The notes: generated from the letters alone by a model not told the origin. A DNA stretch of 64,000 bases from Deltaproteobacteria bacterium (GCA_016208165.1 JACQYL010000053.1:21447-85446), one strand, 5' to 3'; numbered from the stretch's first letter, positions 19,381 to 30,308 are shown. Made by a program: numbers and translations.

Positions 19381-19950
19381 ATGATCTACAATCCTGACGG
19401 GCAATTCGATGCAGTGATCCGACTTACGATGATTGTGGCGATCCTGGTGGTTGGGTGCAGCAGCTACCAAGATCTCGTGTACGGCACCCGTGGCTATACC
19501 ACTAGGCTCCCTCGAGAAGCGCCTGTCTACGTGGCCGTTCCGAAGGACGCGCCGATTTCTTATTCTTCCGGTAAGACGGGAGACACCGGAGGTACGTTTC
19601 CGCAGTCCGGACAGTCCACGGCCGAAGTCATTGTGGGCGCCTTTGCGAAACGCGCATCCAGAGTCCAGTTGGCCCCGGAAACGCAGTCGCTGGCCGACGC
19701 ATTGAAACAAGCGAAGACGGATGGATTCAAGGTTCTGGTCTGGCCGACCCTGATCCATTGGACGGACCGGTCCGAGCACCGCCGGGATCAGATCGTCGTA
19801 AAATTGGTGTTGTACGACACCGGTACGAGAAAGGCTCTCGACTCGGTCACGATCAGAGCCAAGAGTGTAAAATCCGCGCTAGCCTCTCCGAAGGAACTCC
19901 TTTCCGACCCGGTGAGCGATTACGTTGATTCGCTCTATTTCGGCACATAG
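19381..19950 (+). CDS. Putative lipoprotein
   Basis: Hydrophobic N-terminus ending in the lipobox LVVGC (IVAILVVGCSS). Confidence 0.45.
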   Translation: MIYNPDGQFDAVIRLTMIVAILVVGCSSYQDLVYGTRGYTTRLPREAPVYVAVPKDAPISYSSGKTGDTGGTFPQSGQSTAEVIVGAFAKRASRVQLAPETQSLADALKQAKTDGFKVLVWPTLIHWTDRSEHRRDQIVVKLVLYDTGTRKALDSVTIRAKSVKSALASPKELLSDPVSDYVDSLYFGT

Positions 19951-20096: not shown

Positions 20097-22394
20097 TCAA
20101 CGAAAGCTGTGACAACTGCAGCAATCAAGCCTTTCAGTATGTCCCGCCGGTTGCGCAGTGATCGGACCCGGGCCGCACAGATCTACCTGCGACCCGTCGC
20201 CCCCGCTCAGGTCCGGAGCGAAGGGCACGAACTCGAAGTTGGCGCCCTGATCCGCCATGTGGATTTTTGGATCCACACCGTCGTGACAGGAAGAGCACGC
20301 GGAAGCGGTTGGAGTGATGTTAATATCGTCGTTGGGACTCGCCGCGTCGTTCCCTACTTCGATGGTCGTAGGCAACACGTTGTCGCCGATGGCCGGCAAT
20401 TCAAAGCTTCCATCGATATGACAGGCCTCGCAATCGTTTAACGGCCGGGGATAGCGAACTTCGCTGTAGTCGTTGGGGCTACCGCCAAATCCGTACACCA
20501 CGATGCCTTCGGTCCTGAAACCGTCGGCGGAGGAGGCGCCGGCATGGATGGCATGGATCAAGTATTTGAAATCAATGGTTTCCTGTGTCTTACCGTCGGC
20601 CGTTGTCGCTGAGCCACCCGGGCGCCGGCCGATATCCGTGGCATCCGGGTTATGGCAGATTACGCACAGCTGAGTTTCGTCGTTCCGGTTTGCTCCGTGC
20701 AAGCTCAACAAACCGTGGCACTGATCGCAGTTGGCGATGTCCACAACCTCCCGACGCGCCTGTGGCGTAGCGTCCGTGACGGCAAAAAAATTCACCACGC
20801 CTTTGACCGGCACCCGTACATCGAACACGCCGGGTTCGGATTCCACCGCAGGATGCCCCTCGATGGCCACAACCCCCGATCCGGTCACAGCCGCAGGAAT
20901 GGCCACTCCGGATGTCACTGTAAACGTGCCGTCGCCGTTGTCCACCGCGCTTGTAATCGGATTGATCGAGATGGGCTGAGCCGGGGTGCTGGTGCTGCCC
21001 GTGTTCGTATAATCTTCGGAATTCCAGCCGATGAGGATCGCCAATCGGCTGGCGCCTCCGGGAGCATTGAATTCCGGATCGACGAGAATATCGTAGGGCG
21101 CGTCACCGTTGGTGGGATCCGTAACCGAGAATGTGATCACCGGAAACTGTCCGGGCCCCGTGTTCTGGACGTCCAATATGTTGTATTCGAACCTGGCTGC
21201 GGCGGCCTGTTCCGGAATCACGTGAGTATCCGTGATGCCCGCCGCGCCTCCGGACGCCGGATGACAGTTGACGCAGCTGCGGTTGTCGGGTTGGGCGCCC
21301 CCGGCATGGTTTTCACCGGTCACCAAGTTGACGTCGTCGTGACACGACGTGCATGCGGCAATGGTGGGAACGTTCATCCAGTTGTCACCATCCGGCGTAT
21401 CGGAGTCCGAGCCGTCGTGACATTTGGTGCAGTTGCGCCGATCCTGAGGAAAGACCACGTTGGAGTAGTCGTTTACCGAATCCCCAAAACCATATATCAC
21501 ATATTCACCGCCGGCCTGCACACTGGGCAGGTCCTCACCCGAGTGGATCTTGTGGATCATTACCTTGAAATCAACGGTGTTGCCGCTGTTGGCGTCCGTA
21601 CTGCCCGGATTGTGGCAGGTTACGCAATACTTGACAGCGATCCTATCCCCGCCGTGAAATCCCAGCTTCCGGTGGCACTCGTCGCAGTTCGCGTTCCTCA
21701 CGATCGAGCGAGTGGTTATCGGCGTGCTGCCATCGGGCACGAATTCGAATATGGCGTTATCCGTGTTCTCCGTAGTCTGCATGGCCACGCGATGCGTCAG
21801 GGCGGGATTATACGCGACGGCTACGGGAGACGTTACGTTTTGGATATCGAACGAGAAGGTATAGCTGTAGCTGCCGTCCTGATTGTCCACAAACACGCCC
21901 CCCTGCGTACTCGTCCTTTCCGACGAAGCTTGAACCTGGTCCGTGGTCCCCGGCCCTACATCAGGGGTTTCAATCACATTGATGTAACTCTGCCAGAAAC
22001 TCGCATTGCCGTTTGCAGCGGGATTCAGCTGCGCCAGAGTGAAGCGGATGTTCGAAGGGGCCACAAACGCGAGCGGCTGGCCCGCGTTGAACAGCCTGAA
22101 ATTTATGGTCGTGGCGCCGCCAACGATCGTCACTGCGTCTATGACCCCGGTTATAGTCGTCTCCGGAGTGCTGTGCTGCGCGGCCACGTCTACGATCCGG
22201 CCCGGATCGTGGCACAGCATGCATTCTTCGTTGAATGTCTGCTCCACGAGAGGGGGCGCCTGATCTCCGGTACCGCCGCTCTCGCTGCCGCACCCTGCCA
22301 GAAGTAGAACGTAACCGATCGCAAGGCACAAGACCAAGCTGTTAAACAATCCTTTTCTCATGACACCATCTCCTTCCACTCTGAGGTCCGTCAC
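20097..22394 (-). CDS. Large multiheme c-type cytochrome lipoprotein (11 CxxCH motifs), candidate outer-surface terminal reductase
   Basis: CxxCH motifs: CMLCH, CDECH, CVTCH, CTKCH, CTSCH, CVNCH, CDQCH, CVICH, CEACH, CSSCH, CCSCH. Signal peptide with lipobox LLAGC (alternative start at M12 near 22361). Thr/Gly/Asn-rich, beta-rich composition between hemes. Confidence 0.9.
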   Translation of the reverse strand: MTDLRVEGDGVMRKGLFNSLVLCLAIGYVLLLAGCGSESGGTGDQAPPLVEQTFNEECMLCHDPGRIVDVAAQHSTPETTITGVIDAVTIVGGATTINFRLFNAGQPLAFVAPSNIRFTLAQLNPAANGNASFWQSYINVIETPDVGPGTTDQVQASSERTSTQGGVFVDNQDGSYSYTFSFDIQNVTSPVAVAYNPALTHRVAMQTTENTDNAIFEFVPDGSTPITTRSIVRNANCDECHRKLGFHGGDRIAVKYCVTCHNPGSTDANSGNTVDFKVMIHKIHSGEDLPSVQAGGEYVIYGFGDSVNDYSNVVFPQDRRNCTKCHDGSDSDTPDGDNWMNVPTIAACTSCHDDVNLVTGENHAGGAQPDNRSCVNCHPASGGAAGITDTHVIPEQAAAARFEYNILDVQNTGPGQFPVITFSVTDPTNGDAPYDILVDPEFNAPGGASRLAILIGWNSEDYTNTGSTSTPAQPISINPITSAVDNGDGTFTVTSGVAIPAAVTGSGVVAIEGHPAVESEPGVFDVRVPVKGVVNFFAVTDATPQARREVVDIANCDQCHGLLSLHGANRNDETQLCVICHNPDATDIGRRPGGSATTADGKTQETIDFKYLIHAIHAGASSADGFRTEGIVVYGFGGSPNDYSEVRYPRPLNDCEACHIDGSFELPAIGDNVLPTTIEVGNDAASPNDDINITPTASACSSCHDGVDPKIHMADQGANFEFVPFAPDLSGGDGSQVDLCGPGPITAQPAGHTERLDCCSCHSFR

Positions 22395-22403
22395 AAACTT
22401 ATG

Positions 22404-23000
22404 TTATCCCTTGTCGTGAAGGTAGAACTCCTCGTACAAGACGATCGCCTTCTTTACTGCGAATGTCGCCGCACGGGATGATATGGTCGCCCCGGCGATC
22501 CCGGTAATGTCTTTACCGACCGTTAGAACGGAACCGCTGGTCTTACCTTGGTACTGATCCATGAAACTACGTCTCGCGATGGGACGTCCCCTTTTTTCCT
22601 GATAGCTCATCACGAGCACTCTCTGGACGGCGCCCCTCAGATCCATTGCGATCATGAACTCGACAGGGCCCCATTTTCCGGGTTGGTCATCAATAACGGC
22701 CACCCCTATTTTTTTTCCGTCCTTTTCAGCAAAGTAGAAATCGATCTTCTTGCTTGCAACCACGGCTGCGGACTCTGAACCTTCCTGGAGAAATTCGAGG
22801 CTTCCTCCCAACCGTTCCGTCACGCGTTGCTCAACCTCGCCTTTCAACCTTTCCGTCTGTTTGATGATCTTGGTGCCCGCACCAAAAACCTCGAGCAGGG
22901 CCTCTTTGAGCGTCAACAAGGTGAACGCGTGGCCGAGAACAACAGAAGCGGCGAAAACGGCCACTGCGCTTACTACAACAAGAGCTTTCTGCTTTGTCAT
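22404..23000 (-). CDS. Membrane-anchored FMN-binding domain protein (FMN_bind; RnfG/NqrC/PplA-like flavinylation substrate)
   Basis: N-terminal TM helix. C-terminal region DITGIAGATISSRAATFAVKKA contains the conserved D..(S/T)GAT(I/L)(S/T) motif whose Thr is the FMN attachment site in NqrC/RnfG. Start taken at MTKQK (23000), which is preceded by an AGGAGA RBS. Confidence 0.8.
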   Translation of the reverse strand: MTKQKALVVVSAVAVFAASVVLGHAFTLLTLKEALLEVFGAGTKIIKQTERLKGEVEQRVTERLGGSLEFLQEGSESAAVVASKKIDFYFAEKDGKKIGVAVIDDQPGKWGPVEFMIAMDLRGAVQRVLVMSYQEKRGRPIARRSFMDQYQGKTSGSVLTVGKDITGIAGATISSRAATFAVKKAIVLYEEFYLHDKG

Positions 23001-23013
23001 GTGGTGTCTCCTG

Positions 23014-24036
23014 CTATTCGATAGTGGAAATCGCCTGGAGGCGATCTTTGAGACCGGAAGAGTACAAGACTTCACCGGATTCGGTGACCATGATCACCTC
23101 CATGCCGGGAATGCTCTCAACGATCTCGAGACCTTTCTCGGGCCCCAAAACGAACAACGCCGTATTCCAAGCGTCTGCGAGAGCCGGGTCCCCGTACAGG
23201 ATCGTAGTGCCCGTGAGTCCTGAAGCGGGATACCCTGTCTTCGGGTTAAAGATGTGGTGATAGCGCTTACCCTGGTCCATGAAGAATCGCTCGTAATCCC
23301 CCGATCCCATGATCGAGAGGTCCTCCGCCTCTATGAATCCGAGAAGGCCGTCGCCCCGTGGGTCTTTGATTCCCACCTTCCAGGACCGGAGTCCCTTTTT
23401 CCCCATGGCGTATACGTCTCCCCCGGCATCGATCAAGGCTGAGGTCACTCCTTCAGCCCGCAACACTTTTATCGCCTCACCCACCGCGTATCCTTTTGCA
23501 ATGCCGCCTAAGTCGATCCGAATATCGGGCCTAGTCTTTTCCACCTTCGAGTTCCGGACGACCAGATGTTTGTAGCCGATCTTTTCGATGCATCGTTCGA
23601 TGCTTTCGTGATCGGGGACGGAGGGATGGTCTCCATAAAACCCCCATAGCGATATGAGCGGACAGATCGTGATATCAAAGGCGCCGTCCGAATCGCGACT
23701 CACGCCTAAGGCTAATTTCACGAGATCCACGATCTCGCTGTCTGAAATGGGGGCGCCCTCATTGTTGAATGCATACAGGGGGCTTTTAGGGTTCAGGAAA
23801 TCAAACTTCTCATCGACTTCTTCCATCCGCTGCAAGGCCGCGTTCACGGCCTTGGATGTCAATTTCTCGGGGCCGACGGCATAGACGGTTACGTAGGTAT
23901 CCATCATCACGCGCGTCTGCTTTTCCAGATGGAATCGATAGGAGTTGTAGGTTCTCACGCTAAAAAAGACAGCGAACAGCACTCCGACAACTATGAATAT
24001 GACTTTCGCCGTCTTAGACAGGCTATTTTGCTTCAA
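23014..24036 (-). CDS. apbE: FAD:protein FMN transferase (ApbE family), membrane-anchored
   Basis: N-terminal TM helix, then the typical ApbE layout (MDTYVTVYA...GVSRDSDGAFDITI.PLI..WGF...IDLGGIAKGYAV...GD.Y..G). 340 aa. Confidence 0.85.
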   Translation of the reverse strand: MKQNSLSKTAKVIFIVVGVLFAVFFSVRTYNSYRFHLEKQTRVMMDTYVTVYAVGPEKLTSKAVNAALQRMEEVDEKFDFLNPKSPLYAFNNEGAPISDSEIVDLVKLALGVSRDSDGAFDITICPLISLWGFYGDHPSVPDHESIERCIEKIGYKHLVVRNSKVEKTRPDIRIDLGGIAKGYAVGEAIKVLRAEGVTSALIDAGGDVYAMGKKGLRSWKVGIKDPRGDGLLGFIEAEDLSIMGSGDYERFFMDQGKRYHHIFNPKTGYPASGLTGTTILYGDPALADAWNTALFVLGPEKGLEIVESIPGMEVIMVTESGEVLYSSGLKDRLQAISTIE

Positions 24037-24153
24037 TCCACCTCCTAGTTATGCTTCTTCCAGATCAGATCTCTCAGCCGGTCCGACCACGTGCGGCGGA
24101 CTACGCTTGTCCTCGTCAAACATAAGCCGGACATCATTTGGATCTTCCGGTTC

Positions 24154-25425
24154 TTAAAAGGTCGTCCTCCATCCCAACGTCCATCGGATGTACTTGAGCG
24201 TTTCCGAACCATCAGACCGATCGGCATCCACGAGTTCGATCTGTGGTATGATCGTCGAGTTACTGGTAATCCAGTAGTTCAAAGCCATGGACAATGTCTT
24301 ATAATTATCCGTAACGGCGCTCGTTGAAGGGAAGAAGAGATCTACATCGCTATACTTGGCCAACACCCGCCATTCGGGATTGAAAGTGTACATGGCCCGG
24401 ACGTAATATCCTTCGTTCACCGCATCCGCCGTTCCCCCGCCGATCAGCGGGGAATCTTCCTGTTCTCTTCGCAGGTATTCGCCGAGAAGGCTGATGCCCT
24501 TGTATCGCAAGTCCGCACCACCGAGCCATTGCCACGAGTTGTTATCATCGTCGTTATCCCACCTGCCCCATCCCAAGGAGCCCAGAATCCGTATGCTTAC
24601 GTCCATCAAGGAGAATTCGGGCGCTACATGCAGCAACAGATTCTTGGTGCCGTTGTTGTCCACGTAACGGCTCTCTTCATTGTCCCCGTTCAGATATGGA
24701 TAGAAATACACGGGCAATGAGAAATTCTCGAAATCGAAGTTGCGGTACAGCTCCACCCCCAGCGATCGCCAGGACTCCAAAAAGAGCAAGCCATTGTTCC
24801 CGTGATACTGCTCATGCCACCAAGTCTGTCTGGCGTATTCCTCGCTGAACATCGGGTAGAAGGCGCCCACCCGCGCTTCCAGTTCCCAGGGAAGCCTGAC
24901 CGTCATGTATGCCTCGTCAAGGTCCACATCCACGGAAGCCGAGCCCGCTCGGGTGATGTCTCCGCCGAGCCCGGGGGTGGCGGCGGCCAACACTTCGATC
25001 TTGGGAGCAACATCGAGACTCAGCCACTCGTTGAGCACTTTGCTGAAATAGAGATATACGTCACTGATGCCGGCGGAAAGATTGTTGTTCTGGCTCACAT
25101 CGTTGCGCTCACCGTCCGTCCGATCCAGCATGAAGAACTTGAAATGTCCCCCAATGTTGACCCCCTTCCGCACCTCCTCCATGATTTTTGAAGGCATCTG
25201 CGACAGTTCGTCAACACTGTCCTCGAGCTCGGGAATGGCTGCAATCTCTTCCTTCTGGGATTTCTGCTCCTCCTCGAGTTGTTCCACCCGCTCTTTCATC
25301 GTATCCATTGCCTTTTGCATCTGCTGGATCTGCTCTTTAAGATCGGCAATTTCGTCCGACATCGACCGAGCAGGCGCCAACAAAACACAAACAATGACAA
25401 CCACCAATGCAATTCGCAGCTTCAT
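24154..25425 (-). CDS. Putative outer-membrane beta-barrel (porin-like) protein with an N-terminal coiled-coil segment
   Basis: Cleavable signal peptide, about 60-aa heptad-rich Glu/Gln/Lys segment, then alternating aromatic/hydrophilic beta-strand pattern rich in Tyr/Trp/Asn/Gly. C-terminal ...LGWRTTF ends in Phe as in OMP beta-signals. Confidence 0.5.
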   Translation of the reverse strand: MKLRIALVVVIVCVLLAPARSMSDEIADLKEQIQQMQKAMDTMKERVEQLEEEQKSQKEEIAAIPELEDSVDELSQMPSKIMEEVRKGVNIGGHFKFFMLDRTDGERNDVSQNNNLSAGISDVYLYFSKVLNEWLSLDVAPKIEVLAAATPGLGGDITRAGSASVDVDLDEAYMTVRLPWELEARVGAFYPMFSEEYARQTWWHEQYHGNNGLLFLESWRSLGVELYRNFDFENFSLPVYFYPYLNGDNEESRYVDNNGTKNLLLHVAPEFSLMDVSIRILGSLGWGRWDNDDDNNSWQWLGGADLRYKGISLLGEYLRREQEDSPLIGGGTADAVNEGYYVRAMYTFNPEWRVLAKYSDVDLFFPSTSAVTDNYKTLSMALNYWITSNSTIIPQIELVDADRSDGSETLKYIRWTLGWRTTF

Positions 25426-25443
25426 ACCTCCCCCTCCTTATGT

Positions 25444-26292
25444 TTACCTAATAATGGTCCGGATCATTCTATTGACGGACAGGCCGAGTGACTTCCGGAA
25501 CCTCCGGGCGCCACCCACCCTCTCTACGTTTCCCTCCTTTTTATCCGTTCTCGTTTCACTCGGGGGTTCCATCCCTGGCCGGAGAAGCATAGCTACCAAG
25601 TGATTCTCGTGCTGTTGAGCAACCCTCCGATGAGTAGAAAGATCCCGCACAGTTTCCAGATCGGCGCTGCCTTCGAACATCGTCCGATCCATGGGGAAGT
25701 TCTGCCTGCGAAGATGAGCAACGGTGAAATGGATGATAAACACGTGCCCCATGGCCAGCATGCCCTCGATACGATGCACCCAAAGGGCTATGTTCAAGCC
25801 CCATCCCGGTATGATGCGCGTCGAAATCAGAGGGAAAGCCAGGATCAAGCCCGTTGTGCCCATGACCATCATGCCCCAGAATACCGCTCCCAGGTAATCC
25901 ACCTTTTCCCAATATCCCCAGCGGTCAAGACGTGGATGAGATCCTTTGCCGAGAAACCAGGCCACATGCTGGAAAAAATCCTTCACATCATGAGGTTGGG
26001 GAAACATGGAATCCGGGCCCATGAGGGATGACGGAAAAGTACGCCAGCGAATCCGGAAGGCCAGGTACACGAGATGGAGCAGAAAGGCCAGAATCATGAA
26101 AAGTCCCACGTACTTGTGAACCACGAGGGCCGACTCGTAGCCGCCGAACACGCGGGCAAGCCCTTTTCCCCAAGCCGTTTGGATATACATGCGCGCAAGT
26201 CCGGACGCGCCCTGCGTCAAGAACGTGATGATCAGCACCACATGTGAAATGCGTTCTACGGTGTTAAACCGTTTAAGTCTGATCTTCTCCAT
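25444..26292 (-). CDS. Membrane b-type cytochrome (Ni/Fe-hydrogenase b-type cytochrome subunit / cytochrome b561 family; candidate quinol oxidase)
   Basis: RFNTVERISHVVLIITF at the N-terminus is characteristic of the PF01292 family. Four hydrophobic helices with conserved His. Start taken at MEKIRLKRF. Overlaps the upstream gene stop by about 20 nt. Confidence 0.7.
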   Translation of the reverse strand: MEKIRLKRFNTVERISHVVLIITFLTQGASGLARMYIQTAWGKGLARVFGGYESALVVHKYVGLFMILAFLLHLVYLAFRIRWRTFPSSLMGPDSMFPQPHDVKDFFQHVAWFLGKGSHPRLDRWGYWEKVDYLGAVFWGMMVMGTTGLILAFPLISTRIIPGWGLNIALWVHRIEGMLAMGHVFIIHFTVAHLRRQNFPMDRTMFEGSADLETVRDLSTHRRVAQQHENHLVAMLLRPGMEPPSETRTDKKEGNVERVGGARRFRKSLGLSVNRMIRTIIR

Positions 26293-26995
26293 CCGTTTGA
26301 TGACCCTCGTCGCTAGGTTTTCTCTTGAGCAACAACTCCCTGAGACTCCAAAGGAACGTATGAGGCAGAAACACCACAAAGATGCTCACCGACATCCCTA
26401 TCATGATCCAGAACGCATAAAACAGGATCGGGAAATCTTTTCTTGTGCTGAGAGACGCCGGATTTGGCGAATGAACGACGTAGCTGGCAAACGAGGCGTT
26501 GGCTCCTTCGTGACACTTGGAGCAGACGTAGGCATGCCTTCGTATGGGATTCATGGGTGAATAATAGTATTCGCCGCCGGAGATCGGCTCTCCACCATGG
26601 CACTGGCGACACGTCAGATTGGCCCGAACGGTGTGCAGGTCTCGGGTTTCTCTTGGATGGCAATCTTCGCAGGTTTGATACTCGTAGAACCTCAGCCCCA
26701 CATGGGAATCTTCGAGGCGGCTCCGAATTCCTATCCTGGCCGCAGCCGGAGTGTACGGCAGCAGTCCTCGCCTCAAACCCGGAATCGCAATCAACGGGGA
26801 TTCGCTGAAGGGTCTAGCCTCATATTCCTCGTAGTACCCGGTACTCGCTTCATAGTTCTTGTAGCGACGGATGGACGACGCCACTTCCTCCTGAGCATGG
26901 CACAAAGCAGGCCCCAGGAGCAGCGCCGCCGCCAGGCCTAAAAGCAGGGCTATCGATACTCTCCCTGCGGCTCGGTTTCTCATAAGGAATCGCAT
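26273..26995 (-). CDS. Triheme c-type cytochrome with N-terminal signal/anchor and C-terminal transmembrane helix
   Basis: CEDCH, CRQCH and CSKCH motifs. Hydrophobic C-terminus FPILFYAFWIMIGMSVSIFVVFL followed by a charged tail. Confidence 0.8.
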   Translation of the reverse strand: MRFLMRNRAAGRVSIALLLGLAAALLLGPALCHAQEEVASSIRRYKNYEASTGYYEEYEARPFSESPLIAIPGLRRGLLPYTPAAARIGIRSRLEDSHVGLRFYEYQTCEDCHPRETRDLHTVRANLTCRQCHGGEPISGGEYYYSPMNPIRRHAYVCSKCHEGANASFASYVVHSPNPASLSTRKDFPILFYAFWIMIGMSVSIFVVFLPHTFLWSLRELLLKRKPSDEGHQTDGEDQT

Positions 26996-27193
26996 ATCCG
27001 TATCACCAATATTCCCGTATCAGCGCTCAGTGCATTTTCCCGGTCAGGATTCACCCATTGTTGGTGGAACGGGTGACCTGTTCGGCCCTGTCTGGATCTT
27101 CTTCCAAAGAAGAACTCACTTCTTCAATCGGTAGGTTTCCGCCGGATTCCTTCCAACTAAAGGAAGTATTCTGTCTTCCGGATTTCCGGCATG

Positions 27194-28525
27194 TTACTTG
27201 AGTTCAAACGTTTCCGCGCCTTCCTCCTTAAGCTGTATTTCCGGATCTTTTCCTTCCCCTTCCGGGGAGCCGGCCGATTCCGATTCGCCTCCGCCAAAGC
27301 CTCCAAAAGCATCTCGCTGCAACTTCTTCAAGTCGGCGCCCTTATGCTTGTGGCACGTCTCGCAGGAATTAGGAATGTTGGGATTCTTGATCGTGTCGAT
27401 GGGCAACAGGGTGACGAACACATGGCTGTGTAGATCCCCGGATTCCGCGTTTTTCGCGATCCTCGGCATATGACATCCTACGCAATTTGCAAAAGTGTGG
27501 ATGGCGTGCGCCTTAACCCTGTTGACCAACTGATGGCACTGGAAGCACTGCTGCGAACCGGCGGCGGACGTTTGGGACTTGGTTGGAGGCAGACCGATCT
27601 GGTGTACAAAGTGGCAGGAGGTACAGGTAACGCCTTCCACGTAATGAGCCGATTTCAGCCAATCGTTGTATTGCTGATGATGCCCCTTGGAGAACTCATT
27701 CATGTAGAAGTTTCCCGTGTCGCCCTCAGCATACGAAGTGGCGTTGTAATAGGCGGCAAGGGCTTCTCCCGGCTGGTAATCGACGGGCCAATGAACGCCT
27801 TCGGCTACCGTGGACATGCCGCGCTCGTGACACGAACCACAGATCTGAACCCTCGCTCCCGTGGACAATTTGGCCGGATTTACAATTGTTTTACGCTTTT
27901 CGAACACGGCTGTTTTCGGTAAGGCGACATGCCAGGAACCTTTCCCATGACACGCCTCGCACCCTATGCTCAACTCGCTGAACCTGTTGTTTTTCAGATC
28001 CACACCGGTGGCGTGGCAACCACCGCAATACTGGAGCCAGGGTTTTTGATCCCAGTCACCTTCGCGATAAGTCACCCATCGATGAGTGTCCATATTGTAT
28101 TGAATGGGAGCGATGTAAAGAGCGCCGTTTTTTTCAACGATGAAACGCTGCTGCCATTGCCCCCCAATGGCGTATTTGATCTCGTCAAGTTTGGGGATAT
28201 AGATCTGATCCGTCGATGGCTTGGCTGCATCTTCCGATTGGGTGAAGCTCTCCCGAATCTTGGCCTCACTATAAGGGACCATAATGGCGCTGGCGTCCTT
28301 TTGCACATCCAGGGTGCTGCGGCTGTGAGAGGTCATCTTCCAGGAATCGTAATGCTGCAGGTGGCACATCTTGCATCGATCCGATCCGGCGTACGTTTTT
28401 GGAGCTGCTGTGATTTCTTCAATATCTACAGGCGCTTCCGGACTACATGCGGCTAAAACAAGGAGTGTCAGACAGACTGCGATAAGCTTCGAACGGCTTC
28501 CCATGACCATGTTCCCCTCCTCCAT
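27194..28525 (-). CDS. Octaheme c-type cytochrome lipoprotein (periplasmic)
   Basis: Eight CxxCH motifs (CKMCH, CGGCH, CEACH, CGSCH, CTSCH, CFQCH, CVGCH, CETCH). Signal peptide with lipobox LAAC. Confidence 0.9.
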   Translation of the reverse strand: MEEGNMVMGSRSKLIAVCLTLLVLAACSPEAPVDIEEITAAPKTYAGSDRCKMCHLQHYDSWKMTSHSRSTLDVQKDASAIMVPYSEAKIRESFTQSEDAAKPSTDQIYIPKLDEIKYAIGGQWQQRFIVEKNGALYIAPIQYNMDTHRWVTYREGDWDQKPWLQYCGGCHATGVDLKNNRFSELSIGCEACHGKGSWHVALPKTAVFEKRKTIVNPAKLSTGARVQICGSCHERGMSTVAEGVHWPVDYQPGEALAAYYNATSYAEGDTGNFYMNEFSKGHHQQYNDWLKSAHYVEGVTCTSCHFVHQIGLPPTKSQTSAAGSQQCFQCHQLVNRVKAHAIHTFANCVGCHMPRIAKNAESGDLHSHVFVTLLPIDTIKNPNIPNSCETCHKHKGADLKKLQRDAFGGFGGGESESAGSPEGEGKDPEIQLKEEGAETFELK

Positions 28526-28607
28526 AAACGATAACCGTTTTCTCGATGACCCGGTTCGGCATTTCTGTCGGATCGGGTTCCGGCCGCCGGCATCGGCGCC
28601 TGGGTGA

Positions 28608-29879
28608 TCACATGAAAGGAGCTTTTTCTTTCACTGAAGATCCGAGGTTCTCATCGATCGTTTCGACACGCGCAAGGTCCCACAGACGGCTCGTACCGTC
28701 CGCCATGACATAGAGAGTCGCCACCCAATTACTGATCCACTCAACGAGATGACTAATTCTTTTCTTCTTTTCCAGCCTTGCTCCACGAATGCTGGTCCGC
28801 GCCGTTTCCCACAGGTACGGTATGGCTTCCCAGGAAAGCGTGAGTTTCGCCGCCACACTCTTTGACGAAATCCCGAAAAATCGCAGGAACGACAGTAAAC
28901 CGGTCAGTCCGTTGGCCAAGTCCGCCAGCGACGTGGTCATGGTTAACAGGAAACTCAGAAGCATCAGATAGAAAAGGCGAAATGCAAACTGAAACCCGTA
29001 GGTAACCCCTTCAATGGTCATCGTCAAATACGGTATCTCGAATATCGGACGGCCTTCCCCCTGAAGCAGAGCCGGGATCAGAAAAGATGTCAGAAGCAGC
29101 CATCGATACCTTCTTGATCTCCCCAGTAGCTGGGACACCGGAATTCTCGATAGCAACATCGAAGCCAGGAGAAGTCCGGAAAGGCTGAGCATTAACCAGA
29201 GGTTGGCGCTGATCAGAAGAATGAGCGACAAAATCCCACATCCGGCAATCTTTGCCTTGCTTGACAACTGATGGATACAAGAGTCCCGATGCACATAATG
29301 TCGAGATTCCGGCCTGGGCATCCCCTCCGATACCGTCAGAGCGGCTTCGGTCATCGTCCCGATGTGTTCCAACCGTATGCACACGGAGCGTGCAATCGCT
29401 CCGGTAACCCAGCCCATGAGCACGCCTCCGATGCAAAGCCAAGGCAGGAACACAAAAACACCTTCGTGTTTGATTAGTATGAGGTAGGCGAGGACCAGTT
29501 GGGTCAGATTATGGCAAAGGGCGCCCAAAATACTGATCCCGATCAAGCTGAAACGATAGTGACTGCTCGAACCGGAGACCCAGAAAAGGAAGCCCATGGC
29601 GCAGGTGCTGAGAAAGGCCCCGGAAATGCTCAGTACGAAAGGAGGGGACAGGAACGTGCCCATGAGGAAGGAACTGAGAATGGCCCGCAACAAAGCGACT
29701 TCCAGGGCTGCTTTAAAACCCAGGGTCACCAGGGCTACCAAAGTAATCATGTTGGCCAGCCCCAGCCTGAGACCGGGTATGGGGTGGGGCACAATCGATT
29801 CCGCTATTTGAAGCACACAAGAGAGGGAAACGAAAAGCGCTATTTTTTGCATTCGATCGGCTGACAAGGATGCTTCCAT
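28608..29879 (-). CDS. Fusion membrane protein: N-terminal Gx-transporter domain (formerly 'heptaprenyl diphosphate synthase component I', Hpt_synth_I) plus C-terminal ECF-transporter T-component (EcfT/CbiQ)-like domain
   Basis: Residues about 10-175 match the Gx transporter family (IAESIVPHPIPGLRLGLANMITLVALV...ISILGALCHNLTQL). Residues about 200-420 match EcfT/CbiQ (LTMTIEGVTYGFQFAFRLFYLMLLSFLLTMTTSLADLANGLTGLL..L.FFGIS...A.KLTLSW..IPYL.E.A). Confidence 0.65.
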   Translation of the reverse strand: MEASLSADRMQKIALFVSLSCVLQIAESIVPHPIPGLRLGLANMITLVALVTLGFKAALEVALLRAILSSFLMGTFLSPPFVLSISGAFLSTCAMGFLFWVSGSSSHYRFSLIGISILGALCHNLTQLVLAYLILIKHEGVFVFLPWLCIGGVLMGWVTGAIARSVCIRLEHIGTMTEAALTVSEGMPRPESRHYVHRDSCIHQLSSKAKIAGCGILSLILLISANLWLMLSLSGLLLASMLLSRIPVSQLLGRSRRYRWLLLTSFLIPALLQGEGRPIFEIPYLTMTIEGVTYGFQFAFRLFYLMLLSFLLTMTTSLADLANGLTGLLSFLRFFGISSKSVAAKLTLSWEAIPYLWETARTSIRGARLEKKKRISHLVEWISNWVATLYVMADGTSRLWDLARVETIDENLGSSVKEKAPFM

Positions 29880-29900
29880 AGGGCGGCTTCCACTTCCGGT

Positions 29901-30308
29901 TCAGCGAACCACGGCATCCACTAGCGGCGCTTTAGTGGATTGAACTTCGATCAGAATCCTGTTTGGGACACAAACGATAACCTCTCCCGGTACCTGTATC
30001 CAACCCGTACGAACGCAAATCTGTTTGCGGCAATTCGATCGCGCCACTCTGACTTTGCCCTCGTTTACTTCGATGTCCATCTCCTTGGAGGGAAGCGTGA
30101 ATACGTTGTTTTTCGACAGGTTCAACTCGGCCACCAGAAGGCCGTCCTTGAAAACGACGGCCGAGGTAGCTCGCCGGCTCTGACGGCCGGAGTCGTGTCC
30201 CATCCAGAGGATGCTTCCGGCGGAAAGGACGACAATCAGAAAGATCGAAAGCTTTTCGAGTCGAGTCATCCTGCGCGCATAGACTTGCCCCTGGCCTTCG
30301 TCCATCAT
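29901..30308 (-). CDS. NusG domain II-containing small membrane protein (NusG_II, DUF1312-like)
   Basis: About 120-135 aa. N-terminal TM helix then a beta-rich domain with spaced Cys (CRKQICVRTGWIQVPGEVIVCVPNRILIEV). The size, topology and pairing with a Gx-transporter gene 21 nt downstream are typical of this family. Alternative start at MTRLEK (30269). Confidence 0.6.
   Translation of the reverse strand: MMDEGQGQVYARRMTRLEKLSIFLIVVLSAGSILWMGHDSGRQSRRATSAVVFKDGLLVAELNLSKNNVFTLPSKEMDIEVNEGKVRVARSNCRKQICVRTGWIQVPGEVIVCVPNRILIEVQSTKAPLVDAVVR

What the first reader, a model, noticed from the sequence alone, without database searches (positions are those of the whole stretch)
25444..28525. Inner-membrane entry point: hydrogenase-type cytochrome b plus a triheme cytochrome with both N- and C-terminal hydrophobic segments, plus an octaheme lipoprotein
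The cytochrome b belongs to the family that normally anchors hydrogenases or formate dehydrogenases and reduces or oxidises quinones. Here it is encoded with c-type cytochromes instead, overlapping the triheme gene by about 20 nt. This suggests a quinol:cytochrome c oxidoreductase (CbcL/ImcH-like role) made of unconventional parts.

The triheme protein has a predicted C-terminal TM helix, unlike NapC/CymA, which are N-anchored tetrahemes.
Basis: inference. Interest (0 to 1): 0.5.

Follow-up and report, generated by a model that had tools for sequence, protein, structure and literature searches.

The report
Split CbcL-type quinol–cytochrome module
These three genes are a conserved electron-transfer module of sulfate-reducer-type bacteria: a two-gene version of the known CbcL membrane cytochrome plus an eight-heme partner, and the copy in this window has a 128-base deletion in its cytochrome b gene.

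Summary
On the minus strand lie an octaheme lipoprotein (28525-27194), a triheme cytochrome with a signal peptide and a C-terminal membrane helix (26995-26273), and an FdnI-type cytochrome b (26292-25444) that overlaps it by 20 nt.

The parts are not unconventional. The triheme/cytochrome b pair is a two-gene form of the known CbcL/MtrH/MtoC family. Single-chain triheme-b fusions exist (51-52% identical). Fusions carrying 2-22 hemes share the same helix histidine and the four FdnI-type histidines. A fragment of Geobacter CbcL aligns at 42% identity.

The octaheme is a relative of OcwA and keeps its distal His-His pocket. The order octaheme, triheme, cytochrome b is kept in 83 of 85 loci, and relatives occur in 214 species genomes; the 80 listed are Desulfobacterota-type. 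Only about 15% of loci carry the porin/ApbE/FMN/OmcA module seen here.

It removes the last membrane helix, and the final 69 residues are translated from out-of-frame and intergenic DNA.

The most likely function is menaquinol:cytochrome c electron exchange. The direction and the end acceptor are unknown. I rate it a new variant of a known kind, of moderate interest.

The parts
27194..28525 (-). Octaheme c-type cytochrome lipoprotein (443 aa), a relative of OcwA/NrfA-type cytochromes. It has 8 CXXCH motifs, a lipobox Cys27 and a distal His-His pair at 282/283.
   Evidence: Motif count. PDB sequence hit to OcwA 6I5B at E=1.2e-20, with heme motifs 1-4 and 6-9 aligned and the HH pair aligned to OcwA's HH. 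Across 74 family members, Cys27 is 97% conserved, H282/H283 are 95/93% conserved, and 70 of 73 have 8 CXXCH.
26996..27193 (.). 198-nt spacer between the octaheme and triheme genes, with a weak hairpin at 27179-27162.
   Evidence: Sequence. The terminator-like match is consensus-level only.
26273..26995 (-). Triheme c-type cytochrome (240 aa). It has a cleavable-type signal peptide, 3 CXXCH (C109, C129, C158) and a C-terminal membrane helix. It is the c subunit of the split CbcL-type unit.
   Evidence: It aligns over its full length with homologues of 58-80% identity. It matches the N-terminal half of the single-chain fusion P0241 at 51% identity and E=1e-66.
26324..26431 (-). C-terminal transmembrane helix of the triheme protein (residues about 189-224). 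It carries the motif F-L-P-H212-T-x-L-W and is followed by basic residues.
   Evidence: The helix is predicted at pLDDT 80-96, while the rest of the model is poor. H212 is invariant in 42 homologues and 94% conserved in 88 fused c-b representatives.
26273..26292 (-). 20-nt overlap between the end of the triheme gene and the start of the cytochrome b gene, which lie in different reading frames.
   Evidence: In 78 loci the cytochrome b gene is always in a different frame from the triheme gene. The commonest overlaps are 20, 14 and 8 nt.
25654..26292 (-). Intact part of the cytochrome b gene (residues 1-213). It covers the FdnI-like four-helix core, with H17, H59, H73, H173, H183, H188 and H193.
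25444..25653 (-). Aberrant 3' end of the annotated cytochrome b ORF (residues 214-282 plus the stop codon). It lies downstream of the 128-nt deletion junction (25654|25653) and is translated out of frame and then from intergenic DNA.
   Evidence: This tail does not align with any homologue. The DNA alignment with L004 and L003 shows one clean 128-column gap, and the intergenic DNA downstream is conserved.
25593..25653 (-). Remnant of the ancestral last 19 codons (LCGIFLLIGGLLNSTRITW) and the TAG stop of the cytochrome b gene, now in another reading frame.
   Evidence: Three-frame translation, comparison with homologue C-termini, and coordinates.
28608..30308 (-). Context, upstream: a NusG_II-domain protein (30308-29901) and a Hpre_diP_synt_I + CbiQ membrane fusion protein (29879-28608).
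   Evidence: Pfam. These co-occur with the trio in 15-16 of 85 loci.
20097..25425 (-). Context, downstream: coiled-coil + porin-like protein (25425-24154), ApbE flavin transferase (24036-23014), FMN_bind protein (about 23000-22404) and an OmcA/MtrC-family decaheme lipoprotein (22394-20097).
   Evidence: Pfam and NCBIfam (TIGR03507 E=1.3e-165). These co-occur with the trio in 11-15 of 85 loci. A terminator-like hairpin lies at 20029-20010.

Best explanation
The triheme cytochrome and the cytochrome b are the two subunits of one inner-membrane complex. The complex is a split-gene member of the CbcL/MtrH/MtoC family of menaquinol:cytochrome c (or cytochrome c:menaquinone) oxidoreductases.

**Shown**
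- The b subunit has the FdnI fold and the four canonical heme histidines. By depth in the helices, H59 and H173 lie on the periplasmic side and H17 and H188 on the cytoplasmic side.
- The c subunit contributes the helix that precedes the b domain in single-chain relatives. That helix carries a conserved histidine (H212) near its cytoplasmic end.
- The two genes overlap. They are always adjacent and are fused into one protein in some organisms.

**Inferred**
- Two b hemes carry electrons across the membrane between a menaquinone site and the three c hemes.
- The c hemes pass electrons to the co-encoded OcwA-like octaheme lipoprotein.
- In this genome the next step would be the adjacent porin-like protein, the ApbE-flavinylated FMN_bind protein and the OmcA/MtrC decaheme, that is, an outward electron route.
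- In most genomes the trio stands alone under a sigma-54 regulator. There the octaheme is probably the end of the chain or a hub.

**This copy**
The cytochrome b gene in this window has lost 128 nt. It lacks the sixth helix of the complex and has a nonsense tail. Either this copy is impaired or the assembly is wrong at this point.
For: - **Conserved unit.** The order octaheme, triheme, cytochrome b is kept in 83 of 85 loci. Relatives occur in 214 species genomes. The cytochrome b gene is always in another frame, with short overlaps.
- **Fusion evidence.** P0241 (501 aa, one chain) equals the triheme (51% identity, E=1e-66) plus the cytochrome b (52% identity, E=3e-105).
- **Family size.** A profile search found 2271 relatives. 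Many are c-domain, helix, b-domain fusions with 2-22 CXXCH motifs.
- **Histidines.** In 88 fusions, H212 (c helix) is 94% conserved, H17 99%, and H59, H173 and H188 100%.
- **Link to CbcL.**
  - Published CbcL has 9 hemes in residues 30-279, followed by six helices and two b hemes (PMC9129911).
  - It has one histidine in each of helices 1-3 and two in helix 5 (bioRxiv 10.1101/2021.04.15.440034). That is the pattern obtained by joining the two proteins found here.
  - A CbcL fragment read from the supplement of PMC9129911 aligns to the window cytochrome b at 42% identity over 77 residues, E about 1e-15.
- **Family definition.** 3-23 hemes, mostly six helices (PMC6295460).
- **Octaheme.** Hit to OcwA at E=1.2e-20, with the HH pocket aligned.
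Against: - No biochemical or genetic data exist for this clade.
- The full sequences of CbcL and CbcB were not available. The direct comparison with CbcL rests on a machine-read and visibly error-prone figure, plus an architecture match.
- The third homologue search did not return a named Geobacter protein.
- Contact between the triheme and the octaheme is inferred from gene adjacency only.
- The triheme model is unreliable outside its helix (pLDDT 53).
- The direction of electron flow is unknown. Most hosts belong to sulfate-reducer lineages, where flow into the quinone pool is equally plausible.
- In this window the cytochrome b gene is damaged, so the module may not work in this organism.
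Confidence: 0.7

Rival explanations
1. The trio is a self-contained periplasmic reductase system, following NrfH-NrfA logic. The OcwA-like octaheme would be the catalytic subunit, with a five-coordinate heme 2 under the His-His pair. The triheme/cytochrome b pair would be its dedicated quinol dehydrogenase. The substrate would be a soluble compound such as an N-oxide, an S-oxyanion or a chelated metal, not an outer-membrane conduit.
For: - About 80-85% of loci have the trio without any porin, OmcA, ApbE or FMN genes.
- The HH pair aligned with OcwA's distal HH is 93-95% conserved.
- OcwA has five-coordinate hemes 2 and 5 and reduces nitrite and hydroxylamine (PMC6703420).
- A recurrent upstream sigma-54 activator with a HAMP domain, a PhnD-like periplasmic binding protein and a receiver protein suggests induction by a small molecule.
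Against: - OcwA itself is regarded as a terminal reductase for extracellular acceptors, and its nitrite turnover is very slow (PMC6703420).
- There is no CXXCK motif or other enzyme-type heme motif.
- Five-coordination of heme 2 is inferred from an alignment, not shown.
- In this window, and in about 12-16 loci, the trio sits inside an outer-membrane cytochrome cluster.
- This reading also keeps the pair as a quinol dehydrogenase, so it differs from the best explanation only in the end acceptor.
Confidence: 0.25
2. The complex works mainly in reverse, as a cytochrome c:menaquinone oxidoreductase. It would feed periplasmic electrons (from hydrogen, formate or a partner cell) into the quinone pool for sulfate reduction, a role like that of Qrc or the one proposed for CbcBA in Seep-SRB2.
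For: - All 80 listed loci come from Desulfobacterales, Syntrophobacterales, Desulfarculus, Desulfatiglandales or similar lineages.
- CbcL/MtrH/MtoC homologues occur in both Fe(III) reducers and Fe(II) oxidisers and are proposed to be reversible (PMC6295460).
- Reverse operation has been proposed for CbcBA in syntrophic sulfate reducers (PMC10553843).
- FdnI, the closest fold, is a quinone reductase.
Against: - Nothing in the sequence fixes the direction.
- The neighbouring OmcA/MtrC-type cluster in this window is usually associated with outward transfer.
- No sulfate-reduction genes were examined in this window.
Confidence: 0.3
3. In this genome the module is inactive or decaying. On this reading the 128-nt deletion is real, removes the last helix of the b subunit and destabilises the complex.
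For: - There is one clean 128-nt gap (not a multiple of 3) relative to two relatives that have intact genes.
- The ancestral C-terminus and stop codon are still readable in another frame.
- All close homologues are 275-277 aa long and have the helix.
- The sixth helix is conserved in the fused family (G259 at 90% or more).
Against: - The window is a metagenome-assembled contig, so a local assembly error or a minority variant is equally possible.
- All other genes of the cluster look intact.
- The heme-binding four-helix core is untouched.
- A few family members with 4-5 helices are reported in databases (PMC6295460).
Confidence: 0.35
4. The cytochrome b is the membrane anchor of a hydrogenase or formate dehydrogenase encoded elsewhere, and its position next to the cytochromes c is incidental.
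For: The Pfam and NCBIfam matches are to the Ni-hydrogenase/FdnI cytochrome b family, below the family-specific cut-offs. Source annotations call it 'formate dehydrogenase subunit gamma'.
Against: - It always overlaps or abuts the triheme gene.
- It is fused to that gene in some organisms.
- No hydrogenase or molybdopterin gene family recurs within 10 kb in 83 loci.
- The NCBIfam formate-dehydrogenase-gamma score is 34.6 bits against a cut-off of 115.85.
Confidence: 0.03

Closest known systems
CbcL (GSU0274) of Geobacter sulfurreducens and the CbcL/MtrH/MtoC family
   Same: - An FdnI/HydC-like di-heme b domain follows a multiheme c domain and one extra helix.
- Together there are six helices, with a conserved histidine in the extra helix and the four FdnI-type histidines.
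- The cytoplasmic-loop motif GPDS...WF...P.F(D/E)RW.YWEK.D..AVFWG is shared. A CbcL fragment aligns at 42% identity over 77 residues.
- Nine-heme fusions match the cytochrome b profile at E about 1e-69 to 1e-70.
- The published family includes 3-heme members, and members encoded in mtr/mto outer-membrane clusters (PMC6295460).
   Different: - Here the unit is split into two overlapping genes, the conserved state in the 78 loci examined.
- The c part has 3 hemes, not 9.
- A separate OcwA-like octaheme gene is a constant partner.
- The hosts are sulfate-reducer lineages rather than Geobacter.
- Full-length CbcL could not be aligned here.
CbcBA (GSU0593-0594) of Geobacter sulfurreducens
   Same: - A two-subunit bc complex in which the c gene precedes the b gene.
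- The c subunit is anchored by a C-terminal helix that is proposed to supply a histidine for heme b.
- Regulation is sigma-54 dependent (bioRxiv 10.1101/2021.04.15.440034). A sigma-54 activator sits upstream of the trio in 26 loci.
   Different: - CbcA has seven hemes.
- CbcB has four helices and is reported to share no sequence homology with CbcL.
- No octaheme partner is described.
- Sequence relatedness to CbcB could not be tested.
FdnI (formate dehydrogenase-N gamma subunit) and the HyaC/HydC hydrogenase cytochromes b
   Different: - Sequence identity is about 17%, and a profile search of PDB sequences found no match.
- The partner is a c-type cytochrome, not a Mo or NiFe enzyme.
- An extra C-terminal helix and an extra partner helix are present.
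NrfH / NapC / CymA quinol dehydrogenases
   Same: They have the same proposed job: linking the quinone pool to periplasmic multiheme cytochromes. NrfH pairs with an NrfA-family enzyme, much as this pair sits next to an NrfA-related octaheme.
   Different: Those are N-terminally anchored tetrahemes with no b hemes and no cytochrome b subunit. Only marginal matches were found (E=0.28).
OcwA of Thermincola potens (PDB 6I5B), for the octaheme
   Same: Sequence hit at E=1.2e-20. Heme motifs 1-4 and 6-9 align, and the HH pair over heme 2 aligns. OcwA belongs to the NrfA/c554/MccA structural group (PMC6703420).
   Different: - Eight hemes, not nine: the motif that corresponds to OcwA heme 5 is absent.
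- It is a lipoprotein of a diderm bacterium rather than a cell-wall protein of a monoderm.
- It is always encoded next to a CbcL-type unit.

Membership tests
CbcL/MtrH/MtoC family (PMC6295460) | Periplasmic c-type domain with 3-23 CXXCH motifs N-terminal to the membrane part | tested here: met
   The triheme has 3 CXXCH motifs after a signal peptide. Fused relatives have 2-22.
CbcL/MtrH/MtoC family (PMC6295460) | HydC/FdnI-like b-type cytochrome membrane domain | tested here: met
CbcL/MtrH/MtoC family (PMC6295460) | Six transmembrane helices | tested here: inconclusive
   Intact homologues give 1 helix (triheme) + 5 (cytochrome b) = 6. The window copy has 1 + 4 because of the 128-nt deletion.
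CbcL/MtrH/MtoC family (PMC6295460) | Conserved histidines in the membrane helices for heme b | tested here: met
   H212 (c helix) is 94% conserved, H17 99%, and H59, H173 and H188 100% in 88 fused representatives. All are present in the window proteins.
CbcL/MtrH/MtoC family (PMC6295460) | Sequence homology to G. sulfurreducens CbcL itself | tested here: inconclusive
   Only machine-read fragments were available. One aligns at 42% identity over 77 residues, E about 1e-15. The nine-heme fusions of CbcL-like layout match at E about 1e-69 to 1e-70. No named Geobacter protein was retrieved.
CbcL/MtrH/MtoC family (PMC6295460) | c and b domains on a single polypeptide | tested here: not met
   Two ORFs in different frames in all 78 loci examined. 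Single-chain orthologues exist (P0241, P0243, P0247). I therefore file it as a split variant, not a typical member.
CbcBA-type complex (bioRxiv 10.1101/2021.04.15.440034) | Separate b subunit, plus a c subunit anchored by a C-terminal helix carrying a histidine | tested here: met
CbcBA-type complex (bioRxiv 10.1101/2021.04.15.440034) | Sequence homology to CbcB and CbcA; seven-heme CbcA; four-helix CbcB | not testable with these tools
   No CbcB or CbcA sequence could be obtained. The heme number (3) and helix number (5) differ from the published description.
FdnI / Ni-hydrogenase cytochrome b as an enzyme anchor | Encoded with, and attached to, a formate dehydrogenase or a hydrogenase | tested here: not met
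   No such gene family recurs near the trio. The NCBIfam formate-dehydrogenase-gamma score of 34.6 is far below the cut-off of 115.85.
NapC/NirT/NrfH/CymA | N-terminal anchor helix and a four-heme domain that binds quinol directly | tested here: not met
   The anchor is C-terminal and there are three hemes. No significant match: NrfH at E=0.28.
OcwA / NrfA-related multiheme cytochromes (octaheme gene) | NrfA-type heme-motif order, with a distal His-His pocket over heme 2 | tested here: met
   Alignment to 6I5B and conservation data. Five-coordination itself is not testable here.
OcwA / NrfA-related multiheme cytochromes (octaheme gene) | Nine hemes, including the NrfA-like second active-site heme 5 | tested here: not met
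   There are eight CXXCH motifs. The stretch holding OcwA heme 5 has no counterpart.

The most novel reading that the evidence does not exclude
The trio could be an unrecognised respiratory module that is widespread in sulfate-reducing Desulfobacterota (relatives in 214 species genomes). In this reading the OcwA-like octaheme is a catalytic terminal reductase or oxidase for a still unknown periplasmic substrate. It would be wired to menaquinone by a split CbcL-type unit and switched on by a sigma-54 sensor that uses a PhnD-like binding protein. A second, separate possibility is that the fifth conserved histidine (H212, on the c-subunit helix), together with H73, gives the b subunit an alternative or third heme ligation that acts as a redox switch. 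This has been speculated for CbcL.
Probability: 0.2. Interest if true: 0.6.

Novelty: new variant of a known kind. Interest (0 to 1): 0.4.

Why it matters
How sulfate-reducing Desulfobacterota connect their quinone pool to periplasmic and extracellular cytochromes is only partly known; Qrc, Tmc and CbcBA are the candidates usually discussed. This work adds a three-gene module that is strictly conserved and found in more than 200 species-level genomes. It is a two-gene form of the CbcL family and always comes with an OcwA-like octaheme.

That gives a concrete and easily recognised marker, and a testable candidate for electron exchange in these lineages. In a minority of genomes, including this one, the module is joined to a flavinylation/porin/OmcA cluster.

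Current annotation hides it. The b subunit is labelled 'formate dehydrogenase gamma' or 'cytochrome b/b6 domain' and the triheme 'hypothetical'. For this particular contig, the cytochrome b annotation should be flagged as frameshifted.

Tried and rejected
- **PDB sequence searches with cytochrome b profiles.** They found nothing meaningful, not even FdnI. The link to FdnI came only from the fold search.
- **Structure prediction of the triheme.** The model was poor (pLDDT 53) outside its helix, so I ran no fold search on it.
- **NCBIfam.** It has no named model for these proteins. There were only sub-threshold hits to formate dehydrogenase gamma and to ExtN/ExtO/ExtKL.
- **Third homologue search.** I seeded it with the nine-heme fusion P0249 hoping to retrieve a named Geobacter CbcL. 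It returned 120 unnamed or uncultured hits.
- **Cluster look-ups.** They gave no Geobacter names.
- **Sigma-54 promoter.** A search for a -24/-12 promoter in the window found nothing near the cluster and no more matches than chance.
- **Octaheme as a split-off part of longer CbcL-type c domains.** Rejected: identity is only 23-27%, driven by the heme motifs.
- **Cytochrome b as a hydrogenase or formate dehydrogenase anchor.** Rejected: see the rival explanations.
Rejected.
- **Literature searches.** I found no description of this trio. PMC11920609 mentions octaheme Otr in other organisms only.


Full report
**1. What is in the sequence**

Three co-directional genes lie on the minus strand.

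- The octaheme gene (28525-27194) encodes 443 aa with eight CXXCH motifs, no CXXCK, and a lipobox L-A-A-C27.
- The triheme gene (26995-26273) encodes 240 aa with three CXXCH motifs. It has an N-terminal signal-type hydrophobic segment and a second hydrophobic segment near the C-terminus.
- The cytochrome b gene starts at the ATG at 26292. The ORF ends at 25444 and encodes 282 aa.
- The triheme stop codon ends at 26273, so the overlap is exactly 20 nt.

Pfam places the third protein in PF01292, the Ni-hydrogenase/FdnI cytochrome b family (E=1.1e-11). It finds only weak generic multiheme matches for the other two.

**2.

Homologues of the cytochrome b are 275-277 aa long. They end in a hydrophobic helix and the sequence ...LLIGGLLNSTRITW. 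The window protein stops aligning after residue about 213.

Translating the other frames shows LCGIFLLIGGLLNSTRITW* immediately after the break. A DNA alignment with two relatives (L004 and L003, which are otherwise 85-90% identical) shows one clean gap of 128 columns in the window. The DNA downstream is conserved, including the intergenic region up to the ribosome-binding site of the next gene.

The junction lies between 25654 and 25653, and the ancestral TAG is at 25595-25593. Residues 214-282 of the annotated protein are therefore out-of-frame and intergenic translation, and the last membrane helix is missing.

I cannot tell from the sequence whether this is a real deletion or an assembly error in a metagenome-derived contig. 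The identical 282-aa protein is on record only once, from a 101-kb contig labelled 'MAG: Deltaproteobacteria bacterium'.

**3. The three genes are a conserved unit**

The cytochrome b has 560 homologues and the triheme has 1473. Most are 55-65% identical and come from metagenomes.

A scan of one genome per species found 214 genomes with a triheme relative. All 80 loci returned are titled as Desulfobacterales, Syntrophobacterales, Desulfarculus, Desulfatiglandales or similar lineages.

In the 85 loci held, all have the triheme and the cytochrome b, and 83 have the octaheme. The order and strand are always octaheme, triheme, cytochrome b.

The cytochrome b gene is in a different frame from the triheme gene in all 78 cases examined. 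The commonest overlaps are 20, 14 and 8 nt. The split is thus the normal state and not a sequencing error.

**4. What the pair is**

A profile search of 1.8 billion representatives found 2271 relatives. Many of the best are long proteins in which the cytochrome b domain is C-terminal.

- P0241, P0243 and P0247 are single chains with three CXXCH motifs, a helix, and then the b domain.
- P0241 is 51% identical to the window triheme (E=1e-66) and 52% identical to the cytochrome b homologue (E=3e-105).
- Other fusions carry 2-22 hemes, most often 9 or 11. Every one examined has the same motif after the last heme, a helix with (G/L/P)-H-T-x-L-W.

Across 88 such fusions, the histidine matching triheme H212 is 94% conserved. 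The cytochrome b histidine H17 is 99% conserved, and H59, H173 and H188 are 100% conserved. H73 and H193 are 72% and 86% conserved.

By position in the predicted helices, H59 and H173 sit near the periplasmic side. H17 and H188 sit near the cytoplasmic side, as in FdnI. This assignment is an inference from the helix limits.

**5. Link to the known family**

Published descriptions of Geobacter CbcL (GSU0274) give the following.

- Nine c hemes in residues 30-279, followed by six helices with two b hemes (PMC9129911).

Joining the triheme helix to the five helices of the b subunit reproduces exactly that pattern.

The supplement of PMC9129911 holds a machine-read alignment with fragments of CbcL. 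The text is visibly error-prone. Even so, one 85-residue fragment aligns to the window cytochrome b at 42% identity over 77 residues. The E-value is about 1e-15 for the pairwise comparison, and the alignment includes the motif GPDS...WF...P.F(D/E)RW.YWEK.D..AVFWGM.

Zhong and Shi (PMC6295460) defined the CbcL/MtrH/MtoC family as follows.

- It occurs in 15 phyla.
- Proteins are 416-1034 aa long and carry 3-23 CXXCH motifs.
- Most have six helices with conserved histidines.
- Some members are encoded inside mtr or mto outer-membrane clusters.

The pair in the window is therefore a split-gene version of a known family. The two-subunit layout, with a c subunit held by a C-terminal helix carrying a histidine, also has a precedent in Geobacter CbcBA, which is under sigma-54 control (same preprint).

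I could not obtain CbcB or CbcA sequences, so relatedness to them is untested.

**6. The triheme**

Eight histidines are invariant. Three are in the CXXCH motifs. H98, H121, H154 and H175 are enough to give three bis-His hemes. The eighth is H212, in the helix.

The predicted structure is unreliable (pLDDT 53), except for the helix at 189-224. Basic residues follow the helix. This places the C-terminus in the cytoplasm and H212 near the cytoplasmic end of the membrane (an inference).

**7. The octaheme**

Its best solved relative is 6I5B (E=1.2e-20). That entry is OcwA, the nine-heme surface reductase of Thermincola potens (PMC6703420).

The alignment pairs the window's heme motifs 1-4 with OcwA's 1-4 and motifs 5-8 with OcwA's 6-9. 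It pairs K-G-H282-H283-Q-Q-Y with OcwA's S-H-H-L-Q-Y. That paper describes a His-His pair over each of the two five-coordinate hemes (2 and 5).

In 74 family members, H282 and H283 are 95% and 93% conserved and Cys27 is 97% conserved. Seventy of 73 members have eight motifs.

The octaheme is not a detached piece of the longer CbcL-type c domains. Identity to them is only 23-27% and is driven by the heme motifs.

**8. Context**

In the window the trio sits inside a nine-gene run from 30308 to 20097.

- NusG_II-domain protein
- Hpre_diP_synt_I + CbiQ fusion protein
- The trio
- Coiled-coil + porin-like protein
- ApbE
- FMN_bind protein
- OmcA/MtrC-family decaheme (TIGR03507, E=1.3e-165)

A sigma-70-like promoter match lies upstream and a terminator-like hairpin lies downstream. 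Both are consensus-level matches only.

The same set occurs in L001, L003 and L004. Only 11-16 of 85 loci carry these extra genes.

Elsewhere the recurrent neighbours are different.

- An upstream sigma-54 activator with a HAMP domain, in 26 loci.
- A PhnD-like binding protein, in 14 loci.
- A receiver-only protein, in 13 loci.
- Two cupredoxin-like genes downstream, in 12 loci.

One contig carries a fused triheme-b gene next to a second, split copy.

**9. Mechanism**

*Shown:* the fold, the histidines, the conserved adjacency and overlap, the fusions, and the family relationship.

*Inferred:*
- Two b hemes span the membrane and connect a menaquinone site with the three c hemes.
- The c hemes hand electrons to the octaheme lipoprotein.
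- In this genome the chain could continue to the porin-like protein, the flavinylated FMN_bind protein and the OmcA/MtrC cytochrome.

The direction is open. CbcL oxidises menaquinol in Geobacter. However, the family is also found in iron oxidisers (PMC6295460), and reverse flow has been proposed for CbcBA in syntrophic sulfate reducers (PMC10553843).

Because most loci lack any outer-membrane module, the octaheme may itself be the end of the chain. Its conserved His-His pocket is compatible with a catalytic heme.

**10. Verdict**

The CbcL-like role is right and rests on real homology. The parts are the conventional parts of that family, not an unconventional assembly, and the extracellular role applies only to a minority of loci.

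It is a new variant of a known kind: a split CbcL-type unit with a constant OcwA-like partner, widespread in sulfate-reducer lineages, and not described in the papers I could search. The copy in this window carries a 128-nt frameshifting deletion that needs read-level verification. Interest is moderate.

Noticed in passing
window 20097-30308 (-): Nine co-directional genes: NusG_II, Hpre_diP_synt_I+CbiQ fusion, octaheme, triheme, cytochrome b, coiled-coil+porin-like, ApbE, FMN_bind and an OmcA/MtrC decaheme. The same set occurs in L001, L003 and L004. In about 10 other loci, NusG_II and the Hpre fusion lie downstream of the cytochrome b gene instead of upstream of the octaheme gene. Combining a flavinylation system with a multiheme outer-membrane cytochrome is unusual and may deserve a study of its own.
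   Followed up: partly
window 24154-25425 (-): The porin-like protein (423 aa) has a signal peptide and a long coiled-coil segment (about residues 20-85) ahead of a barrel. The barrel matches Porin_O_P only weakly (E=7e-6). At about 330 residues it seems small for a barrel that would sheathe a cytochrome as MtrB does.
   Followed up: no
window 22404-23075 (-): The mechanical ORF for the FMN_bind protein (223 aa, GTG start) overlaps the ApbE gene. Homologues are 196-198 aa long, so the true start is probably the ATG at 23000 (MTKQKALVV...).
   Followed up: partly
window 20652-22307 (+): A 551-aa ORF lies antisense to the OmcA/MtrC gene. It is almost certainly a shadow ORF of this GC-rich gene and not a real gene.
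   Followed up: no
L002 10992-13492, and 11 other loci: In 12 loci the trio is followed by two cupredoxin-like genes instead of the porin/ApbE/OmcA genes. One is a COX2-like protein of 192 aa. The other is a 641-aa protein with weak Cupredoxin_1 and Fer4_5 matches. They may be an alternative electron acceptor for the trio.
   Followed up: partly
L002 4048-7928; 26 loci in all: A sigma-54 activator with a HAMP domain recurs upstream of the trio, often with a PhnD-like periplasmic binding protein and a receiver-only protein. This parallels the sigma-54 control of Geobacter cbcBA. No -24/-12 promoter or such regulator was found next to the cluster in the window.
   Followed up: partly
L087 2690-7551: One metagenomic contig carries a fused triheme-cytochrome b gene (P0241, 501 aa) directly upstream of a second copy of the octaheme gene (60% identical) and a split triheme gene (55% identical). 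Fused and split forms therefore coexist in one genome.
   Followed up: partly
L086 6001-7473: The Solemya velum gill symbiont, a sulfur-oxidising symbiont, has a fused triheme-cytochrome b (P0247, 490 aa). No octaheme gene is nearby. It lies a few genes from a nap-type gene set (NapB-, NapC-type cytochrome-, ferredoxin- and molybdopterin-family Pfam hits).
   Followed up: no
window 19381-19950 (+): A DUF4823 gene lies next to the OmcA/MtrC gene, on the opposite strand. The same arrangement occurs in L001 and L003, so it may belong to the cluster.
   Followed up: no
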